Source: Candidatus Thorarchaeota archaeon (GTDB lineage: Archaea > Asgardarchaeota > Thorarchaeia > Thorarchaeales > Thorarchaeaceae). Taken from it: a stretch of DNA of 21,340 nucleotides. Positions 3 to 15,595 of the stretch are shown here, piece after piece (the first letter of the stretch is position 1; every line of letters starts with the position of its first letter). Under the pieces are notes generated by a model. It was not told the origin of the DNA and searched no databases. It worked only from the letters and a program-made list of their open reading frames with translations. Both the position numbers and the translations under genes were made by a program. The DNA is taken from the NCBI GenBank assembly GCA_019057475.1, contig DXJO01000037.1, positions 1 through 21,340 of the forward strand. The letters run 5' to 3'.

Positions 3-686
3 ATTTGCAAAGAGATAGGTTGTCCTGAGTTGATTGAACCTATTCCAAGACCCAAAGAAGTTTCAGCTATTAGACGACGTGACCTCTTGACTCCTAATGA
101 AATTGCTGCATTGTTGAGAGCCTGCAAAGACTTGTATGAACGTGCAATGATAGAATTACTAGTTGAGTCAGGCTGTAGGATTGGAGAGGTGCTTAGTCTT
201 AATGTCGAAGACATAACCACAGATGATAACTTCCTCTACGTGGATGTCATTGGTAAGACAGGCACTCGTCAAATTCCATTACTCAAAGATAATCTACCAA
301 GTTTTCAGTATCACTTGGTAATCCGTCTAAGTGGTCCAGTGTTCAACAGTAGTCGATATCCTGATAGACCAATCTCATATCGTGTTGTGCTTGATAAAAT
401 CGTGGACATCTTTCAGAGGGCTGGAGTCAAGAAACGTGCTAGAACAATCCACATCTTCAGGCATACCAAGGCAACGTATCTCATTGAACTAGGAGTTCCT
501 GAGAGTATCATCAAGAAGTTCATGGGATGGTCTGAAACTTCAGATACAATAACGAAGTACACCCATCTCACCAACAAGTCAGTCAAGGACTTCTTCAGCA
601 GGCTGTATGGTATTGATGAAGAACCTATTGAACCACTCTTCCCAGATGAAGAACGTAAGAGGATCAAGGAGATGTTCAAAGACTAG
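3..686 (+). CDS. Tyrosine recombinase/integrase (Xer/phage-integrase family), 5'-truncated by the window edge
   Basis: Catalytic motifs in order: GCRIGE (R), IGKTG (K), HIFRH (HxxR), MGW (H/W), KYTH (Y). The frame is open from position 3 (ICKEIGCPEL...), so the true start lies upstream. Confidence 0.95.
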   Translation: MCKEIGCPELIEPIPRPKEVSAIRRRDLLTPNEIAALLRACKDLYERAMIELLVESGCRIGEVLSLNVEDITTDDNFLYVDVIGKTGTRQIPLLKDNLPSFQYHLVIRLSGPVFNSSRYPDRPISYRVVLDKIVDIFQRAGVKKRARTIHIFRHTKATYLIELGVPESIIKKFMGWSETSDTITKYTHLTNKSVKDFFSRLYGIDEEPIEPLFPDEERKRIKEMFKD

Positions 687-1040: not shown

Positions 1041-2117
1041 TCACGTGGGAGTTATCTTGACGAATCCAAAGCCAACGAACTCTGTTATCAAATCCATTGC
1101 CTTAGCGTCAAGTTTGTCTTTTTCAAAGGGGATGTAACCTATGTCACTGAAATCACTTGCAAGAGTCACCCTATCTTCTTTTAGTATCACAATCTTGTCA
1201 TACAGAATGGAGGCTGCACCAAGTTCATAAACCGCATTGTCACTTGGCCTCCAAATCTCCTTACCTTTTGCATCCAAGCACATCTCATCTGCTGTAAAGA
1301 TGATTATCGCTGATGTACACTCATGCATAAGGTCTGCAACTTTCTTCGAGATCGGACGACCCCCAAGTGGTTCGTCTATGGCAACCTTGTAAGGGACCCT
1401 GAACTTGTCAAGTATAGTCTTTAGTTGCTTCACAGGAATACGATTCTTACCATGAGCAACGAAAATCTGATTCTTCTTGGACGGTTCTGCTGTAGCCTTA
1501 GGAATCTGTTCTGTAACAGCCTCCTCAATCGATTCAGGTGGGACCTGAGTTTTTACTTTTGAAGAAACAGTTGGCCCTTCAAATGTAACATGCAAGGCAC
1601 CCTGACTCTCGAACAAAATACCAGCAAACTTGCCATTTGCTATTAGTTGATTGATGCAATCATCGAGAAACTTCTTTGGAATTTTGAAGTCGGTTTCCAA
1701 TGTATTCCTGAAGTAGGTGTCCTCTGCAGAAGGAAGACGCCCATCCCTATAGTACTCATATATCTTTTCGAACGCTTTGACGCTGAGCACAGCCTTCTGT
1801 CTGTCAAGTACTTCCTTCTCAGGCTTCACAGGTTTTGTAAGTGATTGACCTAACGGTGCCAAGGCTATTGTTGTTGCATTCCACGTTCCTTTGGTAATAG
1901 CGTACTTGTATGCCGAACTGGTAATATCTCTAAACTTTTGACTTCCTGCCTTCAACTTCATGTAGTCTGCAATGAATACAGGCTTCCATGGCTTCCCATT
2001 GTTGCCTTTCTGTATGGCTTGTGCTACCTTGAGTGCATCCTCAAGAGTATGATGTGGTATAGGTCTTTGGGGACTTCGCTTTTCCACTTTGGCAGTTCCT
2101 TTTGCTGAACCAGACAT
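1041..2117 (-). CDS. TIR-domain protein (Cap12/Pycsar-type TIR) with an uncharacterised, possibly wHTH-like, N-terminal domain
   Basis: C-terminal IFVAHG, AIIIFTADE, RPSDNAVYELG (putative catalytic Glu) and SDFSDIGYIPF match this TIR family. ATG 2117 (MSGSAK) is the likelier start than 2231. Confidence 0.85.
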   Translation of the reverse strand: MSGSAKGTAKVEKRSPQRPIPHHTLEDALKVAQAIQKGNNGKPWKPVFIADYMKLKAGSQKFRDITSSAYKYAITKGTWNATTIALAPLGQSLTKPVKPEKEVLDRQKAVLSVKAFEKIYEYYRDGRLPSAEDTYFRNTLETDFKIPKKFLDDCINQLIANGKFAGILFESQGALHVTFEGPTVSSKVKTQVPPESIEEAVTEQIPKATAEPSKKNQIFVAHGKNRIPVKQLKTILDKFRVPYKVAIDEPLGGRPISKKVADLMHECTSAIIIFTADEMCLDAKGKEIWRPSDNAVYELGAASILYDKIVILKEDRVTLASDFSDIGYIPFEKDKLDAKAMDLITEFVGFGFVKITPT

Positions 2118-2248
2118 TGTACATACCCAAAAGCAACTCCTAATGATTCGCAAATTAATGTTTCGACCAAACTCGCAGAGATTCATACCATCTAGAGTAT
2201 TGAAATCAAAGAGATGTTTGGGTAGGATCAATCCCTACCTTCTATATT

Positions 2249-2437
2249 TTATTCAAATGATTCAAGTTCAAGATAAACTGAACCTCTATTATTTCTGTAG
2301 AGTTTAAAGCGACCTGTAATCCTTTCACGTGTGTCTGCATTCTCTGCCGCTCTAATTAGGTCTGCAAACGCTTTGCTTGTTGCTTCTGTTACATTATCTG
2401 CATCCCGCGGTTCTCTTGTGCGTAGTCTTATCTTCAA
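2249..2437 (-). CDS. Small hypothetical protein
   Basis: 62-aa ORF co-oriented upstream of the TIR gene, with natural-looking composition and a GGAG upstream of the TTG start. Confidence 0.5.
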   Translation of the reverse strand: MKIRLRTREPRDADNVTEATSKAFADLIRAAENADTRERITGRFKLYRNNRGSVYLELESFE

Positions 2438-2571
2438 ATTTACTCAACTCCGTATTTTCATTCACGGCTTAAGGATAAGAAGATAGCATTTGTCCTTATC
2501 TATTTCTCAAATTCAATGCGGCAAAGAATGCCATTTTTGTACTAACATGACTGTCTATTCTGTGAGATACT

Positions 2572-2712
2572 ATGAAAGTCAAATGCCTAGACTGTGGACA
2601 TGTTGGAGAATCAGTAATTCCACCACCAAAAGGAAGCAAGTATGGGGAAGAATCTCAATCCATTCCAGCATGTGCTAAGTGCAAAAGTGGAAACATAACA
2701 AGATTGGAGTAG
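2572..2712 (+). CDS. 46-aa zinc-ribbon microprotein (not in ORF track)
   Basis: Manual translation MKVKCLDCGHVGESVIPPPKGSKYGEESQSIPACAKCKSGNITRLE*: two CxxC pairs, with a GTGAG RBS-like site upstream. Confidence 0.8.
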   Translation: MKVKCLDCGHVGESVIPPPKGSKYGEESQSIPACAKCKSGNITRLE

Positions 2713-2728
2713 ATTCATCGTTCAATCT

Positions 2729-3046
2729 CTAATCTCTAAGATTGCCGTATTCTGTTCCATCTGGCATAAACATTGTCTTACAAACATGACAATGAAGCCT
2801 CGTTGAACCAACAAGACTTCCAAGATAACCACATTTAGGACAATTTCCCATGCTACGTAATCTCTTCTGCTTTTTCATATACAACTCCCCAAATATCGTG
2901 AACTTGTTGAAACATTTAGGACATTTGAATCTGTAATTGCGACCTCGATTATCAGCAACTACTTTGGTCATCGGTTTACCCTGCAAAGGACACGTGGGAC
3001 ACCAATCACCTTCTTTCATGTGTGTTTTCCCATTGACAGTTATCAT
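2729..3046 (-). CDS. Double zinc-ribbon protein
   Basis: Four CxxC motifs (CPTC, CPKC, CPKC, CHVC) in 105 aa. Confidence 0.8.
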   Translation of the reverse strand: MITVNGKTHMKEGDWCPTCPLQGKPMTKVVADNRGRNYRFKCPKCFNKFTIFGELYMKKQKRLRSMGNCPKCGYLGSLVGSTRLHCHVCKTMFMPDGTEYGNLRD

Positions 3047-3156: not shown

Positions 3157-3969
3157 TTGTATGATGTGATGATGGAATCCAAAGACTTCAAGGTATTCTT
3201 GGACTTCATGGACAGCAAAGATGCTACCTACTACATGAATTTCTGGGGTCACATGGACATTTCCATCCAGTGTGTTGCTAATGATGGACGTTATGTTGGA
3301 GAATTAATCACAAGTTATAGATTCAAATACACTTGCATTGAACCTCTCAGAATTTGCTTTGATTCAAAGACTAGAGAGGCACTCAGGAGGTCAAGTATTG
3401 GAGTCGAAAAGGTCACCATTGAAGGTTCAAATATCGTCCTTGGTGAAGACCAATACACCGTGATAAGTCGGTATATGAATGAACGATTGCCACCTATTAT
3501 TGAGGATACGACAGAGAGAATTCAAGAGATGACTCTTTTACTTAGTGAGTTTCGAAGAGCGGTCAACATTCTTCATAAAGAAAAGATACAACTTGCTAGA
3601 CTTCGTTTTCTTGTGAAGAGTCGATTATTGGAAGTTTCTACAACCACTGAACTATCGACTTCGTGGAGTTTCAGACTTCCTACATCTGATGTCTATTTTT
3701 CAGGTGAAGAACCTCAGGTGTATTTCGGACAGGAGGAGTATCCAGATCCTCCTCAGGTCATAGACTCGTACTATGACGTAAATGACCTTCTATGTGTGAT
3801 AGATGCAATGGAATATCACTATGGAAGAGAAATCGTGCTCTCACTGTCACTACTCCAAGATGACAGATTGCTCTTTGAATCAGATAATAAGAAAGGTACT
3901 CTCCATCATAGGTATAAGGAAGCTACTCTCACGCATAGGTGTATACTCAACAAAGCAGTCATAGAATAG
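3157..3969 (+). CDS. Divergent PCNA-like sliding clamp
   Basis: 270 aa. The pattern follows PCNA: FKVFLDFM, ISIQCVAND (cf. ISLQAMD), FKYTCIEPLRICFD (cf. FDEYECDEPxxIGV), LSEFRRAV, DSYYDVNDLL (cf. SSYSLEYL). By-eye match only. Confidence 0.6.
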   Translation: MYDVMMESKDFKVFLDFMDSKDATYYMNFWGHMDISIQCVANDGRYVGELITSYRFKYTCIEPLRICFDSKTREALRRSSIGVEKVTIEGSNIVLGEDQYTVISRYMNERLPPIIEDTTERIQEMTLLLSEFRRAVNILHKEKIQLARLRFLVKSRLLEVSTTTELSTSWSFRLPTSDVYFSGEEPQVYFGQEEYPDPPQVIDSYYDVNDLLCVIDAMEYHYGREIVLSLSLLQDDRLLFESDNKKGTLHHRYKEATLTHRCILNKAVIE

Positions 3970-4018
3970 AAATGTTACAAAGAATGCAACATTTGCTCTG
4001 CAAGGACTCACTGATGTA

Positions 4019-4207
4019 GAACACGCAATGCGTCCATCTGGGTGATGAGGTCCACTAGAGGAGCACGTCACAGGCAGAGGTGCACTAGGAGGTTGACGTC
4101 ACAGGCTCGATATCGGGAGTCTCTATAGGTGAAATATGGGCCACCCAATCAATACCTATTCACAAGATTTTACGTAGTAAAATCGTCCTCTGTGACTCCA
4201 CCGAATT
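4019..4207. repeat. Copy 1 of a ~190-bp non-coding module
   Basis: Shares GAACACGCAATGCGTCCAT (19/19), four GT(S)CAC(T)AG(G)-type units, ATCGGGAGT..CTATAG, CCTATTCAC and an 8-bp hairpin with 5171-5357. Confidence 0.85.
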
Positions 4208-4363
4208 CTATTCCTCGTCATTGAGTGGAATATCAACCACAAACGAATCAACATCAATTTCCCCATTCGTGATGTAAAGTTTTCCAGCAACGTCTTCATG
4301 ATTTGACACGAAGTGAGTATTTTCTGGACCCACCTTTACATTAGTAAACTTGACCTTAACCAT
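4208..4363 (-). CDS. 51-aa hypothetical microprotein
   Basis: ATG at 4363 (MVKVKFTNV...) is preceded by a perfect GGAGGTGA RBS. Confidence 0.7.
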   Translation of the reverse strand: MVKVKFTNVKVGPENTHFVSNHEDVAGKLYITNGEIDVDSFVVDIPLNDEE

Positions 4364-4394
4364 CTCTTCACCTCCTGTTACGTGTATCATAACA

Positions 4395-5100
4395 CAAGAT
4401 TTCTTCGGAATTACGTGTGGTGATATCTAAATCCGAGGAGTTCCTGTTTACTAACAGTCAGTCAAATGTGCTGATTCCACAAAATCTCCGATGACTGTTT
4501 TAGCAGAAGGAGTTGCTCCTCTCAATGGGCTAAGTTGTACTCCTTCTGCACCTTTTTCCCATCACCTTATAGAACTCCATACTTCGCCGTATTTCCGAAG
4601 AACACCTCGGTAACAGAGAGGAGCAACAAAGTTTAGCCCCTGTCCATGAATTGCGTTGATAATTCAGGAACCATAGGTTAACTGGATAACATATTTGGCA
4701 CAATTCCTAAGTTTCTCGTAACCTCAGGACGTCAGAAGTACACCTAATACTACTGACAAACTGATCCATATGAGATAAAGTACATCGTCTGATGTACTTG
4801 TTCAGTCACCTGAGTAATTCTTTACAAAGACACTGCTGTACTACTCATATGATATAACAAAGACACTGCACTACTAGGAGAAATCGGATGAATTCTTTAG
4901 AGGGAATATTTCCCTTGAAAATAATTCCCAGAAATTTATTAAACCTGAGGTCTCGCCATACTTAACTTTTGTGTATGACACTCCGCGAGACACCTAGACA
5001 AATTGGGTTGTTTCGAGGTCATACTTAAAGAGTGGGCTTTAACTTCGAAAAGACCTCCCACAAGAACACTTCCGAAATCCGAGTTGTCTTTGGTCGACGC
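4395..5100 (+). ncRNA. Candidate structured ncRNA domain(s) with pseudoknots
   Basis: Helices 4401-4415/4588-4602 (14/15), 4437-4443/4572-4578, 4453-4460/4492-4499, 4503-4513/4539-4549, 4778-4786/4791-4799, 4950-4956/4985-4991 and 4996-5009/5076-5089. G-U pairs favour +. No credible ORF. Confidence 0.55.
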
Positions 5101-5154
5101 AATGCGATACCCACGAGTTAATTGCCAACACTTCTTCAAATCCGCCTTTCCTCA

Positions 5155-5570
5155 ATACAAAGATGCTACTGAACACGCAATGCGTCCATATGTCGTCACT
5201 AGGAGGCTGAGGTGCACAGGAGCACGTCACAGGCACGTCCACTAGGAGAGATCAGTTCAAATCGGGAGTTCTATAGAGGTAAACTGCGCCATCCCAAATC
5301 ACTCCTATTCACTAAGTAATTTCCCTTGAAATTACGCCTCCTAGTAACCATCGATTTGTCGAAGACAAATCATCTGGTTACCTGGTGGACATCTTTGTGT
5401 CCTGTGTGTTAAGTGAATAGGGCTGCCGCAGTATGTATTACGAATTATTGGCACTAGCATCTTTGTGTCCACTCCTCTAAAGTCGAAGTATTAGCCCAAT
5501 AGATTCATCGGATTTACTGGGAGAACTTGTCTGTCACAACTGTAGAGAAACCCCCGATTTATTCCAGTGA
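5155..5570 (+). ncRNA. Candidate structured ncRNA (contains module copy 2)
   Basis: Nested helices 5259-5276/5540-5560, 5283-5288/5427-5432, 5304-5313/5412-5421, 5316-5323/5328-5335, 5344-5350/5375-5381, 5353-5360/5364-5371 and 5387-5392/5397-5402. G-U pairs favour +. Confidence 0.55.
5171..5357. repeat. Copy 2 of the ~190-bp non-coding module
   Basis: Collinear conserved blocks with 4019-4207. Confidence 0.85.
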
Positions 5571-5638
5571 TGTCCATGCTTTAGTACAGTCCTTCAATAA
5601 TTGTAGAGCCTTGTACTCCCAGCCAATTTAACTCAAGA

Positions 5639-5697
5639 TATGTCTCAAATAGTTGTAGAGTCATTCAACTATGTCTCAACTCGTGTGAGTCATTCAA
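5639..5697. repeat. Imperfect ~31-bp tandem duplication
   Basis: TATGTCTCAA...GAGTCATTCAA occurs twice (starts 5639 and 5670). Confidence 0.7.
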
Positions 5698-5715
5698 TCA
5701 CTCTTCAATTATCGT

Positions 5716-6219
5716 TCAAACTAGTAGCGGCTCACTCTCAAACTGGATATTATCTACTGAAATATGTAGGCAGTCTCCTCTCCTAATCCAAGGTTTCTCT
5801 TCATATGCAAGTTCAAATGCTTTGAATAGAAGTAGGGTCTTTAAATGACTATCAAGTGACGGTTCATGTACTTCATTGTGGCAGCTATTACAAAGAAGTG
5901 ATAATGTCCACGGTTGACCGTCACCATGTGAATATTGATTCTCTATGTGGTGAAGGCTTAGTTTCTGATAATTGAAGACTTCACTCTTGCCACAAAGAAC
6001 ACAATTCCTTCCATAGAGATTTCTGATGTGTAGTCTTTGAAATGTTGAAACATCACCTGCTCTATTTCCATGTTTATAATCTAATATTGAAAGAGGACGT
6101 TCTGACCACATCTTTGCCATTCTACGTGAATGTGATACTCTTTGTTCATATGTGAGTTTCATTTGCATCACTCTCTCAGTATCAATCTTTTCATTGCTCT
6201 TTTGAACCGTTTCAAACAC
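5716..6219 (-). CDS. HNH endonuclease-like protein (paralog 1)
   Basis: CVLCG...LHHI...LLCNSCHNEVH: Zn-binding HNH signature. The start may be a downstream ATG. Confidence 0.85.
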   Translation of the reverse strand: MFETVQKSNEKIDTERVMQMKLTYEQRVSHSRRMAKMWSERPLSILDYKHGNRAGDVSTFQRLHIRNLYGRNCVLCGKSEVFNYQKLSLHHIENQYSHGDGQPWTLSLLCNSCHNEVHEPSLDSHLKTLLLFKAFELAYEEKPWIRRGDCLHISVDNIQFESEPLLV

Positions 6220-6334
6220 TCCTTACTACAAAAGTAGAAGGTCTTGTCACCTACTTCATAATCTATGCTGCTTCGAATATTCACAGTCTTGCAACAGAAA
6301 TAGCAATCAACGATTACTACGTGTTGTCTTTGCA

Positions 6335-6802
6335 TTATATCACCTTCTTATCGACACTTGCTGTACTTGGTGCTATAGGCTGGACCTCTGAACTAATTGA
6401 TCGATTTGAAGGCATTGATTCTTCTGTAACCCCCATCAATCCCGTTAGATTCCCCTTAGAATAGGCTGTTACCTTGAACATCACGTCCTTTATAATCTCG
6501 TCAATGAATTCACTACAATCTTCATTTAGTCTGTATATTACCATAACAGCAATGAGGAAATCTCTTAGTCCTTTCTTTGTTAGGTCTTTGTAAGGAGTAC
6601 AAATCTTCCATCGCATCTGATATCTGTTGAATACAGGAGAACAAAATTTTGCTGATGGAGTGTAATAGCAATACACTCTAGGTCTCGGACCATGTCTGTA
6701 AAACAACATTGAACAGAACAGAAATTGTGCATCAAAGAAATCCTCTTCTATGAAGAATATTGATGATATGTATTTGATCCTATCTAATAACAAAGAATAC
6801 AC
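6335..6802 (-). CDS. Hypothetical protein
   Basis: 155-aa ORF co-oriented upstream of HNH 1. No motif recognised and the start is uncertain. Confidence 0.55.
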   Translation of the reverse strand: MYSLLLDRIKYISSIFFIEEDFFDAQFLFCSMLFYRHGPRPRVYCYYTPSAKFCSPVFNRYQMRWKICTPYKDLTKKGLRDFLIAVMVIYRLNEDCSEFIDEIIKDVMFKVTAYSKGNLTGLMGVTEESMPSNRSISSEVQPIAPSTASVDKKVI

Positions 6803-6809
6803 TTCCTAG

Positions 6810-7439
6810 CATTTGTCTTTGTGCTTACATTCAGTTTGACCTGCTCTTAGGCAGGTATGTTGAACTATGTGGGATTTACTGCCCTTCTAACCCGTTACAT
6901 TCTAGATTTGAAGGCCTTCACATCCCTGAAGACGTCCGCATTTTGTGAAGTGTAACAAAGTATATTGCAACTATCAGGACCCGATTCCCACTCCTTCTTC
7001 CGTAACTCGGAGAGTTTCTTACTATGTTTCTGAAGTTCCTCTTCAGACAAACTATCCCAATAACTAGTGCTTATCGGGTCGTTGGGTTGCAAATGCAACA
7101 ACTTTCTGTAAGAAAGTATGGCTGGCACAGAATTGTTTCCGTGAATACCATCATTCCAAGGTATCAAGGTCAAACTCAACGTAGCTGCCTACATCATTGC
7201 TAATCTCTCTTGTCCCAGTACGTTGTGAGAAGTCTATAGATTCTGGGAGGACTCGTATCCCAATTCTTCTTATAGAGGATCATCGCCAGCCAATGTATCC
7301 CCCAGTTGGCATTCATTTTTGCGACATCTGCTAACGCGTTACCATTCCGTTAGGACATACGGTATCACCCAGTTCGGTACTCAATTGCTAACGCATTAGC
7401 ACAAGTCACTCTACATCTGCTAAAGTATCGCTGTTAGCA
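6810..7439 (+). ncRNA. Candidate ~630-nt structured ncRNA
   Basis: Helices 6819-6825/7398-7404, 6824-6830/6867-6873, 6839-6844/6851-6856, 6894-6901/6949-6956, 6965-6972/7085-7092, 6978-6985/7073-7080, 7029-7035/7041-7047, 7101-7107/7111-7117 and 7119-7126/7285-7292. G-U pairs favour +. Confidence 0.55.
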
Positions 7440-9055
7440 GGCCCTGTGGAATAAGTCGAATGACGGAAAAGAACCAGAATTCCATCTCTTCGATGTTGCA
7501 TTTCATACATCTCACAAGAAAACCGATGCTGATATCGATCACATCGAGTGTAAACTAACGGGCTTTTTCCACAGAGCCGATCTCTTCGGACAAGTTATTA
7601 GCAAAGACGTACAAATCACGGTTGAGGGGAAGGCAAACCATTGATTGCGGTTCCGTATCTAGTGAAGCAAGCAAGGAGGTCGAAAGTCCGAATTTATTCG
7701 GTCATTCTTCTATGCTCTATTATCGGGACAGTTCACCTGACCATATCTCTGGAAACCTACGTCAGAGAACCAGTGGCAATCTGGGAGGAACTGAATAATC
7801 CATGGGCCTATGCTCTCTACGACATTGCCTTTTATGATTCATCTCGCGGGTGGGCAATTGGAATGGCAGATGCTGGGCCAGGGGAACGTGACTGTGGAGT
7901 TGTGCTGCAGACCAAAGATGGAGGAGATACGTGGACCCTGTCCTATTCGAACCCGGATGTTCAACCTAATTTCATCGAGATTGTTGATTCCAAGACGGTA
8001 TGGATTGCTACAAGAAGAGGACTCCTGAACACTCTTAACGGTGGTTTAACATGGAATATCGACCTGCCAAAATACAAAGCAGCTTATGAATACAATCCCA
8101 CTGTGGCATTCAAAAACTCCACGCATGGTTGGACAAGTATAAACTGGGAACTCCTCTATACTGTAGATGGAGGGCACATCTGGAATCCTGTCGAATCATG
8201 GCCCTTTGATACAGGGGTTTTCCAGATCCGTTTTGTTGGAGAACAACTGATGTGGGCAGGGAGTCTTGATGGAATATTCCACAGCCAAGATGGAGGACAG
8301 ACTTGGACTCAGCAATTCAACAGATCAACCCGTGGTCTTGCAATAGTGAGCGAAACTGAGGGATGGGCTTGTTACCTTGACAGCCATCTTTCACACATGA
8401 TAGATGGACAAAACTGGATTCAAAAGCATACACCCAGCAGAGCGTCCTATTTCCAATGGGCAGCTTCGCGCTATATGGATTTGGAATTCATCAACCCCAA
8501 ACAGGGTTGGATAGTGGGGTCTACCGTGGGTGTCGCTTACACTCCAGATGGGGGATTGAACTGGTATGTACAAAAGCTACCCCCACGCTGGAGTAGTCTG
8601 CGGGCTGTAGACTTCATCAATGAAACACATGGCTGGGCTGTTGGATGGAATGGGAACATATACCGTACAAGAACAGGCAATCAATACGGCAGAAGGTTGG
8701 TAGGAGACGGGTACGTGATTCGAGGGTTTGGGGGTGACTGGGTTATTCCAAGTAGCACTGTGGTATGTGTCATTCTGGTTGCTTTTGGTGGTATTGTATC
8801 ACTTCAATTGATTGATAGATATCGGGAGAGGAGAAAATCTGAACCAATTCAAGCATCCCTGAGAATTCAATGGTAGGATTGTGTGACAAAAGGTTGGCAT
8901 ACTGAATATCAGTAGCCCCTAATAGGCGAAAGATAAGATCAAAGAGTGCGATGTGGAAGTTACCAACATCGGTTTTCTTGTGAGATGTATGAAATGCAAC
9001 ATCGAAGAGATGGATCCTGGTTCTTTCTCTGTCATTTGACTTATTCCACAGGGCC
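7440..9055. mobile_element. Non-autonomous IS5-family (IS903-like) insertion cassette carrying one passenger gene
   Basis: Perfect 18-bp terminal IR GGCCCTGTGGAATAAGTC (7440-7457 / 9038-9055), extending imperfectly to ~110 bp with a perfect 48-bp block (7481-7528 / 8967-9014). Direct flanks CTGTTAGCA (9 bp) at 7431-7439 and 9056-9064. No transposase. Confidence 0.92.
7641..8876 (+). CDS. YCF48-related / BNR(Asp-box)-repeat beta-propeller membrane protein
   Basis: Six TxDGGxxW-type repeats (TKDGGDTW, TLNGGLTW, TVDGGHIW, SQDGGQTW, MIDGQNW, TPDGGLNW), F.N...GW motifs, and N- and C-terminal hydrophobic segments. Confidence 0.9.
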   Translation: MIAVPYLVKQARRSKVRIYSVILLCSIIGTVHLTISLETYVREPVAIWEELNNPWAYALYDIAFYDSSRGWAIGMADAGPGERDCGVVLQTKDGGDTWTLSYSNPDVQPNFIEIVDSKTVWIATRRGLLNTLNGGLTWNIDLPKYKAAYEYNPTVAFKNSTHGWTSINWELLYTVDGGHIWNPVESWPFDTGVFQIRFVGEQLMWAGSLDGIFHSQDGGQTWTQQFNRSTRGLAIVSETEGWACYLDSHLSHMIDGQNWIQKHTPSRASYFQWAASRYMDLEFINPKQGWIVGSTVGVAYTPDGGLNWYVQKLPPRWSSLRAVDFINETHGWAVGWNGNIYRTRTGNQYGRRLVGDGYVIRGFGGDWVIPSSTVVCVILVAFGGIVSLQLIDRYRERRKSEPIQASLRIQW

Positions 9056-12012: not shown

Positions 12013-12083
12013 GTGACCGAACACCCTTCACGACACCTCGTGTTCTGCCTGTGCAAGATAGGGTGTTAAGTTCGTGTTAGATG

Positions 12084-13177
12084 ACTCACTCATGTTATCC
12101 TCTTCTGATGCTGTTAGATTGAGATGTTAGGTGGTTCTGAATTCTCTTCTTCACAAAAAGACCTAACAAGTTATCACAAGTTCACAGAAAAGGTCTGATA
12201 TATCAGGCGGCTTTAGGCATTCTTTGATAGAAGCGTAGCTGTCTCGCTAATTAATACGTTCGTATTATTTAGACAATGTTCTTCACAAAATTCCATATGC
12301 CGTACAATCTTCCGAGCGGTGTCATAATCCTTTCTGCACCACGCTTCGACTGCTGGAATATTGCATTTTAGTCCCTCTATCTTATCATAGAATTATATAC
12401 ACTCTTGACAAAAACATATACACTCTTGACAGTGTCAACATCTGAATCCTAACAACCTAACAGAAACATATACACTCTTGACAGTGTCAACATCTGAATC
12501 TTCACAAGTTGACAGAAAAACTTCACAAGTTTTCACAGACTCACAGAAAATCCTCACAAGTTCACAGAAAAGGTCTGATATATCAGGCGGCTTTAGGCAT
12601 TCTTTGATAGAAGCATATACACTCTTGACAAAAACATATACACTCTTGATGGAAAAGGTCTGATATCTCAAAGGCATAATAAAGATGGGCCATTTGGTCG
12701 TCTATCCACTATATAGGGTGTCCTGCAAGTACGTTTGCAAGTGTGTTTGCAAGTTGGCCTATATAGCGCTCCTGCAACCCTCTTTGTAAGGGTGTTTGTA
12801 AGGGTGTTTGTAAGGTGGGTCTTTCGTACCCTTCAATCACCTGAGCATCGCATGAGAATCGAGGTCTAACGGGATGTGAGGGGGTGAGGATGGGGGTACG
12901 AAAGCCATACTAGACCTCATCTACCCTCATTCTATGAGGGGGTAGCCATAGCCCAGTGTGTTAGTATCTTACATGACTAATAACCTAACACATAAGCATC
13001 AATGCATCCTAAGAAAGACAGACGTGTGTAAGATGCCAGCTTGCAAGCATTTTCATAGTTGTCTGCAATGTAATTACCACTCATCACGCAAGAACGAAAG
13101 GTGTAAACAACCTAACATTTTACAGATGTTAGTCCTCCTGTTCTAGTGTAGATAGGACTTCCCACACTGCCTTCTCA
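12084..13177. repeat. Copy A of a repeat-rich non-coding element
   Basis: Collinear with 14913-15595: CACTCATGTTA, CTGTTAGATTGAG, GTTAGGTGGTTCTGA, two CTATATAG boxes with 12-bp repeats, hairpin 12821-12831/12894-12904, and a 47-bp terminus at 13131-13177. Confidence 0.9.
12174..12650. repeat. Iteron-like cluster
   Basis: Perfect 61-bp direct repeat (12174-12234, 12554-12614), five ATATACACTCTTGA (12395, 12416, 12468, 12615, 12636) and two TTGACAGTGTCAA inverted repeats. Confidence 0.9.
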
Positions 13178-14912: not shown

Positions 14913-15595
14913 CACTCATGTTAGGTTTTCCTGAGTCAAACAGTTCACTCATGTTAGACTCTTCACTCATGTTAGGTTTTCCTGAGTCAAATAATTCACT
15001 CGTGTTAGACTCTCCTGACACTGTTAGATTGAGTTTTATTGAGAAGTTAGGTGGTTCTGACTCTATTTCTTTACAGAAGAGATCTGAAATCTTCTAGATG
15101 TAGTAAGATAAGATATTATGTCGTCTGGTCCCTATATAGCGCTGTGGAAAGTACTAAAGAAAGTACTAAAGAAAGTACTTTTGAAAGCTGGCCTATATAG
15201 CGCTACGGCAAGTACTTTTGCAAGTTGACCTTTCGTACCCTTCGATCACCTGAGCATCGCATGAGAATCGAGCTCTAACGGGATGTGAGGGGGGATGGTG
15301 GGGGTACGAAAGCTATACTAGACCTCATCTGCCCTCATTCTATAAGAACACACCCATAGCAGCGTATCAATACTTTACATTATTTACAACTTTACACAAT
15401 AGGCACCAATGAGTCTTAAAAGAAACAGACGTGTGTGAAACGCCAGCTTGCAAATGGCTTGCAAGCACTTTCGTAGTCTATCTGCAGCGCATTCGCCACT
15501 CGTCACGCGAGCGCGAAAAGGTGTAAGCAATCCGATGTTTTACATGTCAGTCCTCCTGTTCTAGTGTGGATAGGACTTCCCACACTGCCTTCTCA
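14913..15595. repeat. Copy B of the repeat-rich non-coding element
   Basis: 51-bp tandem duplication (14913-15014), CTATATAG at 15132 and 15193, hairpin 15230-15240/15302-15312, and terminus 15549-15595 (46/47 identical to copy A). Confidence 0.9.

What the first reader, a model, noticed from the sequence alone, without database searches (positions are those of the whole stretch)
4395..4645. Closed multibranch domain with a 3' tail that pairs back at three interior sites
Seen: helix 4401-4415/4588-4602 closes a domain with three internal stems. The tail just outside carries three consecutive perfect complements to interior segments: CCTCGG 4605-4610 to 4433-4438, GAGAGGAGCAAC 4616-4627 to 4512-4523 (12 bp) and TTAGCCC 4633-4639 to 4527-4533. 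The last two target the same 25-nt hairpin loop. Inference: a multi-pseudoknot, intermolecular kissing (as in cage-forming large RNAs such as ROOL/GOLLD), or a guide loop encoded next to its own target.
Basis: partly seen in the sequence, partly recalled or inferred. Interest (0 to 1): 0.8.

Follow-up and report, generated by a model that had tools for sequence, protein, structure and literature searches.

The report
Switchable RNA fold in Asgard element
A 250-base stretch in a mobile element of a Thorarchaeota archaeon folds far better than chance and matches no known RNA family, but its four natural relatives keep only part of the long-range pairing, so it looks more like a variable two-state RNA module than a fixed multi-pseudoknot.

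Summary
All four complements are present at the stated coordinates and exceed chance (three perfect helices of 10 bp or more: 0/5000 shuffles). The host is a Thorarchaeota genome. The window is an integrative element (XerA-like recombinase, HNH genes, variable cargo). No Rfam family matches.

Only four homologues were found, all metagenomic and mosaics of reshuffled blocks. They keep hairpins G and F (compensatory changes in both), a weaker 5' hairpin H0 and an invariant 9-nt motif. A helix E enclosing G and F is partly kept with different partners (3 of 4). The 12-bp loop-tail helix survives, shorter, in 2 of 4. The closing helix P1 and the 6-bp and 7-bp tail pairings are specific to the window.

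Each long-range segment also has a local partner, and a fully nested fold using the 12-bp helix costs only about 4 kcal/mol more. Pairing both loop segments at once would thread the tail twice through a closed loop.

Best reading: a new plus-strand structured RNA module with alternative folds (0.45). Rivals: ssDNA structure or template-switch by-product, a translational switch for the adjacent 51-aa gene, or a guide RNA. No expression data. The scan has no look-alike on other DNA.

The parts
4398..4443 (+). H0: local hairpin 4398-4412/4429-4443 (13/15 pairs), the first structure to form; competes with P1 and with the 6-bp pairing
   Evidence: 81% of cells paired in 5 sequences, no two-sided change; p = 1.0 until the chain passes about 4585
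4401..4602 (+). P1: long-range closing helix 4401-4415/4588-4602 (14/15), window-specific in this form
   Evidence: not significant in homologues, P 0.24-0.80
4433..4610 (+). C: 6-bp tail pairing 4433-4438/4605-4610, window-specific
4437..4578 (+). E: helix 4437-4443/4572-4578 enclosing hairpins G and F; the homologous 5' strand finds a different 3' partner in L017, L021 and L022
   Evidence: (P = 0.025, 0.02, 0.09)
4453..4499 (+). G: hairpin 4453-4460/4492-4499 with apical stem 4468-4470/4478-4480 and the invariant motif GCTGATTCC at 4470-4478
   Evidence: two pairs with two-sided changes; motif invariant in 5/5
4503..4549 (+). F: 11-bp hairpin 4503-4513/4539-4549 with a hypervariable 20-27-nt loop region
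   Evidence: stem kept in 5/5 with compensatory substitutions and indels; block identity 37-67%
4512..4627 (+). B: 12-bp loop-tail pairing 4512-4523/4616-4627; shorter bulged versions at the same site in L021 and L038
4527..4639 (+). A: 7-bp (10 with G-U) loop-tail pairing 4527-4536/4630-4639; not kept within any single homologue, although the L021 loop fits the L022 tail
4616..4644 (+). Tail hairpin: weak in the window, 9 bp in L038; its two arms are the B and A partners
4208..4363 (-). 51-aa orphan ORF with a Shine-Dalgarno-like site at 4368-4375, always next to the module
   Evidence: third-position bias of substitutions 8/13, 7/12, 9/17; no Pfam, Atlas or fold match
4019..4216 (-). Truncated second copy of the 3' part of the neighbouring structured domain DII
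5157..5570 (-). DII: a second structured domain, downstream of HNH1, with its own tail-to-interior complements; not detectably homologous to the finding
   Evidence: homologue behind the HNH gene of L039
5716..6219 (-). Compact zinc-binding HNH gene related to NUMOD3-HNH phage nucleases; missing next to the module in L017
3157..3969 (+). Conserved element gene, PCNA-like by eye (untested; no Pfam or NCBIfam hit); possible source of + strand read-through
3..686 (+). Tyrosine recombinase (XerA-like; no integron-integrase score), cut by the contig start
   Evidence: homologue in L049

Best explanation
The stretch is a non-coding, structured RNA module of a Thorarchaeota integrative element, most likely read on the + strand. 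It probably has two folds rather than one rigid triple pseudoknot. Shown: local hairpins H0, G and F and a tail hairpin are kept in five mosaic variants, G and F with compensatory changes. Computed: while the chain grows it first forms H0, G and F. Once 4588-4602 exists it can refold into the closed P1/E domain. Once the tail exists, the 12-bp helix B can form either as a loop-tail pseudoknot on F or, by opening F, as part of a nested H0+G+B fold about 4 kcal/mol higher. Inferred: the 3' half works as an internal strand-displacement partner that switches or locks the fold, in cis or between two copies. The invariant motif in G would be the protein- or RNA-contact site, serving a control or maintenance function of the element. 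Recombination between element lineages reshuffles the blocks, so the long-range pairings are complete only where loop and tail come from the same lineage, as in this window.
For: Helix excess over chance. Compensatory pairs in G and F. The E strand finds a 3' partner in L017, L021 and L022 although their 3' arms are only 29-61% identical to the window. The loop 5' side pairs with the same tail site in the window, L038 and L021. Where the strands differ, + is favoured: L021 z -3.8 on + against -0.4 on -; L021 E pairing P 0.02 against 0.78, and L038 B pairing 0.02 against 0.48. Near-isoenergetic alternative folds. Mosaic blocks: L017 is 93-95% identical to the window in H0 and G but 37% in F. 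The window loop and L021 loop pair best with window-type tails.
Against: Only four homologues, related and recombinant, so the covariation counts have little power. No transcript evidence, and no promoter or terminator above chance (the scan is bacterial). In the window, L017 and L022 the - strand folds as well or better. The bistability is computed for the window only; in the homologues the B fold costs 10-14 kcal/mol. The tract is rich in repeated words in both orientations, which raises chance complementarity. No function is shown.
Confidence: 0.45

Rival explanations
1. The conserved hairpins act as single-stranded DNA (origin, transfer or recombination signal of the element), or are only tolerated. 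The perfect 10-12-bp long-range complements are lineage-specific by-products of replication template switching and micro-duplication in a hairpin-rich, recombining tract.
For: P1, C and A are window-specific. Repeated short words in both orientations are strongly enriched in 4000-5720. Variants carry short duplications and insertions. Five GNA-triloop hairpins lie on one strand in these tracts, two of them C-GNA-G among 6 hairpins in 4000-5720, against 7 of 1392 in host contigs. Template switching can create perfect stems in one step (bioRxiv 10.1101/2021.04.15.439925). ssDNA and RNA motifs are hard to tell apart computationally (PMC5737381).
Against: G-U-rich partners work on one strand only in L021 and L038. 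The L021 loop has diverged from the window loop yet still fits window-type tails at both sites, which suggests an old pairing. The GNA-triloop hairpins lie outside the finding itself.
Confidence: 0.27
2. The - strand is the functional one: a long 5' leader of the 51-aa gene. Segment 4621-4610 is an anti-Shine-Dalgarno strand, and the 12-bp helix removes it, giving a translational switch. Any + strand RNA would be its antisense regulator.
For: The ORF looks coding and is always adjacent. The anti-SD/SD duplex is -16.2 kcal/mol in the window, and the SD core is paired in the computed ensemble. The - strand folds as well as + in the window.
Against: The anti-SD duplex is only -7 to -10 kcal/mol in the homologues. 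The strand-specific signals favour +. No start site is known.
Confidence: 0.12
3. A rigid ornate RNA with several pseudoknots or intermolecular kissing contacts (ARRPOF/ROOL/GOLLD-like assembly), of which the window is the intact form and the homologues are broken recombinants.
For: Size matches ARRPOF (255 nt, four pseudoknots, domain-swapped dimers; PMC12990946). All long-range pairings are near-perfect in the window. The long-range structure has 13 two-sided changes against 7.1 in shuffles. The cofolded dimer is 7 kcal/mol below two monomers.
Against: No Rfam match down to E = 10. In ROOL and GOLLD the contacts are conserved and covary (bioRxiv 10.1101/2024.12.08.627333); here C, A and P1 are not kept. 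B plus A would wind the tail about two turns through a closed 25-nt loop (inference). The count is biased because the structure was derived from the window.
Confidence: 0.09
4. A guide or splint RNA for an element enzyme (HNH or tyrosine recombinase), or a remnant of a group I/II intron, in which the tail or loop addresses a target.
For: The loop and tail are the most variable parts and co-occur as matching types. The parallel order of the complements recalls group II EBS/IBS pairing (own knowledge). An HNH gene precedes the sister domain DII in two lineages.
Against: The HNH matches the IscB model only over the HNH part, 33 bits against a cut-off of 175, and its nearest genome hits are NUMOD3-type HNH proteins. 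L017 keeps the module without the HNH gene. No IS110, TnpB or reverse transcriptase gene is in the window. No group I/II or HEARO model match.
Confidence: 0.07

Closest known systems
Plasmid-associated structured motifs ARRPOF, GEBRO, PAGEV (Weinberg 2017, PMC5737381; ARRPOF structure reviewed in PMC12990946)
   Same: About 250 nt, non-coding, carried by a mobile element, multibranch with possible pseudoknots; RNA versus ssDNA role also open; ARRPOF has alternative domain-swapped folds.
   Different: No sequence or covariance-model match; archaeal integrative element, not a bacterial plasmid; long-range pairings vary between variants; no link to replication shown.
ROOL, GOLLD, OLE, raiA ornate RNAs (bioRxiv 10.1101/2024.12.08.627333)
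   Same: Long-range loop-to-distal pairing; ROOL and GOLLD often lie in prophages.
   Different: ROOL, GOLLD and OLE full-length RNAs are 550-830 nt with conserved, covarying contacts. This module is about 250 nt, has no Rfam match, and its contacts are mostly lineage-specific and longer than kissing loops.
HEARO/omega RNA of IscB; IS110 bridge RNA
   Same: Structured RNA near an HNH or recombinase gene, with a variable segment.
   Different: No IscB, TnpB or IS110 protein. The HNH is a NUMOD3-HNH relative and can be absent. Both loop segments are inverted copies of the tail, whereas a bridge RNA loop has one direct and one inverted segment (own knowledge).
Group II intron EBS/IBS and group I IGS pairing
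   Same: Complementary segments in parallel order; tail able to bridge two separated segments.
   Different: No domain V/VI or group I core match; spacing and length of the segments do not fit IBS1/IBS2.
Integron attC sites
   Same: Hairpin-rich non-coding DNA near a tyrosine recombinase and variable cargo.
   Different: Multibranch 250-nt module, not repeated between cassettes; the recombinase scores 40 bits against a cut-off of 265 on the integron-integrase model.

Membership tests
Any Rfam 15 family (ROOL, GOLLD, OLE, raiA, ARRPOF, HEARO, ribozymes) | Covariance-model score at or above the family threshold | tested here: not met
   No hit at gathering score in the window; only two snoRNA chance hits at E about 6 in 3950-7500; nothing relevant in six homologous loci
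ROOL/GOLLD-type cage RNA | Conserved, covarying long-range or intermolecular contacts | tested here: inconclusive
   C, A and P1 not kept in 4 homologues; B kept weakly in 2 of 4 and E in 3 of 4; only five sequences, mosaic
ROOL/GOLLD-type cage RNA | Forms defined homo-oligomers | not testable with these tools
   Only a cofold energy, which is not evidence of assembly
IscB-omega RNA (HEARO) | Adjacent IscB with PLMP, RuvC and HNH domains | tested here: not met
   167-aa HNH matches only model positions 162-246 of 314, 33 bits against 175; absent beside the module in L017
IS110/IS1111 bridge RNA | IS110 DEDD recombinase in the element | tested here: not met
   No such Pfam domain among the 20 ORFs scanned
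Group II intron | Domain V/VI and a GUGYG 5' end behind IBS1/IBS2 | tested here: not met
   No Rfam intron hit to E = 10; no such hairpin seen
Group I intron | P3-P7 core with conserved P, Q, R, S elements | tested here: not met
   No Rfam hit; only an isolated Q-like word on the - strand by eye
Integron attC site | Repeated simple hairpins between cassettes plus an IntI recombinase | tested here: not met
   Single copy in the genome; recombinase XerA-like
Structured ncRNA in general | Is transcribed as a discrete RNA | not testable with these tools
   No read-mapping tool; sample types of the homologues unknown (one search found no paper)

The most novel reading that the evidence does not exclude
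These Thorarchaeota elements carry a set of unrelated large structured RNAs (this module, DII and the 6810-7440 region) built from exchangeable blocks. In this one the 3' tail is complementary to the F loop in circularly permuted order, so it could act as an internal splint or guide that directs cutting or joining in the loop, or addresses a partner molecule. That would be an undescribed RNA-directed system in Asgard mobile elements.
Probability: 0.1. Interest if true: 0.85.

Novelty: new variant of a known kind. Interest (0 to 1): 0.5.

Why it matters
My literature searches found no structured RNA described from Asgard archaeal integrative elements. This module has no family match. It comes with natural variants in which loop and tail types are reassorted, which gives ready-made compensatory controls. 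If it is a switchable RNA, it is a new regulatory motif of Asgard mobile elements and a test case for how long-range RNA pairings arise and are lost by recombination. If the long complements are only template-switch products, the locus is a useful warning that perfect 10-12-bp pseudoknot-like matches in a single genome need not be conserved structure.

Tried and rejected
Homologue searches that gave nothing or only chance hits: phage BLAST; 60 relatives and 400 phylum genomes by DNA and by the small protein; exact patterns in metagenome, viral and genome collections (the 13 viral hits to a DII pattern were not inspected); covariance model R1 over 87 genomes of the class and over related loci; profile search of 1.84 billion proteins with the small-ORF alignment. 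A disrupted long reading frame across the module was considered and rejected: no frame is open. Homology of the module to DII in inverted orientation was suggested by a shared 11-12-mer helix but is not detected by profile search. tRNA and tmRNA: none. The small protein gave a low-confidence model (pLDDT 62) and no fold match. The G-U tally was not used as evidence, because those helices were picked with a + strand search. The 4-mer-preserving shuffle barely permutes a 43-nt tail and was not used. Searches failed on input or tool errors. DNA for two homologous contigs (P0008, P0014) could not be retrieved.

Full report
1. Observation. The three tail complements are perfect at the stated coordinates, and the closing helix has 14 of 15 pairs. 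The + strand MFE has this helix (P1) closing a multibranch domain, z = -3.76; the - strand gives -3.36. Three Watson-Crick helices of 10 bp or more in 251 nt occurred in 0 of 5000 dinucleotide shuffles. A tail with 12-, 7- and 6-bp complements has P = 1.5e-4 (dinucleotide) and 1.3e-3 (trinucleotide), and appears in 7 of 77,359 host-genome windows, this one included. The feature is real.

2. Context. The window is a whole 21-kb contig of lower GC (43.7%) than nearly all other contigs of the genome. The genome's RNA polymerase subunits cluster with Thorarchaeota proteins. The contig holds a tyrosine recombinase, a Cap12-type TIR gene, two HNH genes, CAAX proteases and a D5/P4-type primase-helicase part. 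Related loci show the same recombinase and the 270-aa gene with different cargo, so this is a family of integrative elements. The module lies in a 1.7-kb almost gene-free tract. On its left is a 51-aa ORF on the - strand with a Shine-Dalgarno-like site and third-position-biased substitutions. On its right is a second structured domain, DII, on the - strand behind HNH1; a homologue of DII follows the HNH gene of L039. The two domains are not detectably homologous. No Rfam family matches the window or the homologous loci.

3. Homologues. Through the small ORF I found four distinct variants, L017, L021, L022 and L038, all from metagenomes. All other searches found nothing. The variants are mosaics. 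L017 is 93-95% identical to the window in H0 and G but 37% in the F block. L021 and L022 are 96% identical in H0 but 45-49% further on.

4. What is conserved. Hairpin G has two pairs with two-sided changes and an invariant 9-nt motif. Hairpin F is present in all five with compensatory substitutions and indels. H0 is 81% paired, without two-sided changes, and the tail forms its own hairpin, 9 bp in L038. I tested the long-range pairings per variant against shuffles of that variant's 3' half. The E strand finds a partner in L017 (P = 0.025), L021 (0.02) and L022 (0.09), each with a different sequence, and not in L038; E is in the MFE of the window and L022. The loop 5' side (B) pairs with the same tail site in L038 (0.02) and L021 (0.11), and not in L017 or L022. 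P1, C and A are not significant in any homologue. Combining the four by hand (Fisher) gives about 0.008 for E and 0.04 for B. These values overstate the case, because the segments were chosen after the fact and the sequences are related. In cross-pairing, the window and L021 loops fit the window-type tails, including the L022 tail, much better than the L022 loop fits its own tail. So one loop type and one tail type belong together and are separated by recombination. The pair count for the full long-range structure (13 two-sided changes against 7.1 shuffled) leans the same way but is biased towards the window.

5. Mechanism. Every long-range segment has a local partner: the P1 and C strands pair in H0, and the B and A partners pair in the tail hairpin. 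Stepwise folding gives H0, G and F first, then P1/E once 4588-4602 is made. A nested fold with H0, an extended G and the 12-bp B helix lies about 4 kcal/mol above the MFE and dominates when the chain is extended to 4700. B therefore does not need to be a pseudoknot. By inference, B and A cannot easily form together: the tail matches the loop in circularly permuted order, and 12 plus 10 bp would wind it about twice through a loop closed by F. That needs F to open, the loop to be cut, or the two pairings to alternate. I therefore read the module as a + strand structured RNA with a conserved G/F core, an enclosing helix and a variable tail that displaces local hairpins to switch or lock the fold (0.45). 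Shown: sequence, helix statistics, covariation in G and F, mosaicism. Computed: the alternative folds, for the window only (10-14 kcal/mol cost in homologues). Inferred: transcription, strand, switching and any function. Strand evidence is modest: + is clearly favoured in L021 and L038, and neither strand in the others.

6. Rivals. (a) ssDNA structure or by-product (0.27): the tract is enriched in repeated words in both orientations and in GNA-triloop hairpins; template switching can create perfect stems (10.1101/2021.04.15.439925); ssDNA and RNA motifs are hard to separate (PMC5737381). (b) A - strand translational switch for the 51-aa gene (0.12): anti-SD duplex -16.2 kcal/mol in the window, weaker elsewhere. 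(c) A rigid ornate or oligomeric RNA (0.09): size like ARRPOF (PMC12990946), but contacts not conserved as they are in ROOL and GOLLD. (d) A guide, splint or intron remnant (0.07): the HNH is a NUMOD3-HNH relative, not IscB, and is missing beside the module in L017.

7. Comparison and novelty. It works most like the mobile-element structured motifs of about 250 nt (ARRPOF, GEBRO, PAGEV) but is a member of no described family. It is a new, rare motif from an Asgard integrative element. The scan's index has no look-alike in other genomes; notes on this same window pointed me to DII and the HNH link, which I checked in part.

8. Verdict. Observation confirmed; interpretation partly supported. The multi-pseudoknot is mostly specific to one lineage, while a core structure and one loop-tail pairing have some support from homologues. 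Interest 0.5.

Noticed in passing
window 5157-5570 (- strand); L017 1340-1800; L039 930-1420: Second structured domain behind the HNH gene. Its central helix is kept with a compensatory extra pair in L039, and its tail-to-interior complements differ in each variant. It has a divergent homologue and a linked protein, so it may be a better lead than the finding itself.
   Followed up: partly
window 7072-7305; L049 5353-5454 and 6236-6389: The third structured region has a homologue in L049 that is split by an insertion of about 780 bp carrying a 140-aa ORF, as if a hairpin loop accepts cargo genes.
   Followed up: partly
window 4166-4184, 5353-5371, 7101-7117; L049 about 5270-5350: Several perfect hairpins with GNA triloops on the same strand, a loop type known to be very stable in ssDNA.
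   Followed up: partly
window 3157-3969: Element gene that looks like a very divergent PCNA by eye; seven homologues at 58-75% identity, no Pfam or NCBIfam hit, no other match at E 1e-15 in 87 class genomes. Not folded.
   Followed up: partly
window 4824-4880; L022, L017, L038 equivalents: A hairpin of 11-12 bp is intact in L017 and L022 but has lost its 3' arm in the window, so the window is not uniformly the intact version of the tract.
   Followed up: no
window 2191-2756; L017 4514-6139; L049 889-3061: Short segments next to the recombinase recur two or three times between variable small ORFs in related elements, a cassette-like arrangement with a non-IntI recombinase.
   Followed up: no
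window 6145-6300 (- strand); L017 1005-1169: Small TRASH/YHS-like (L24e-weak) ORF overlapping the HNH start; kept in L017, where the HNH gene is reduced to its last 46 bases.
   Followed up: no
window 1041-2231: Stand-alone Cap12/Pycsar-type TIR gene as cargo, replaced by other genes in related elements.
   Followed up: no
window 12076-13177 and 14913-15595: A further pair of long diverged non-coding repeats with internal tandem units.
   Followed up: no
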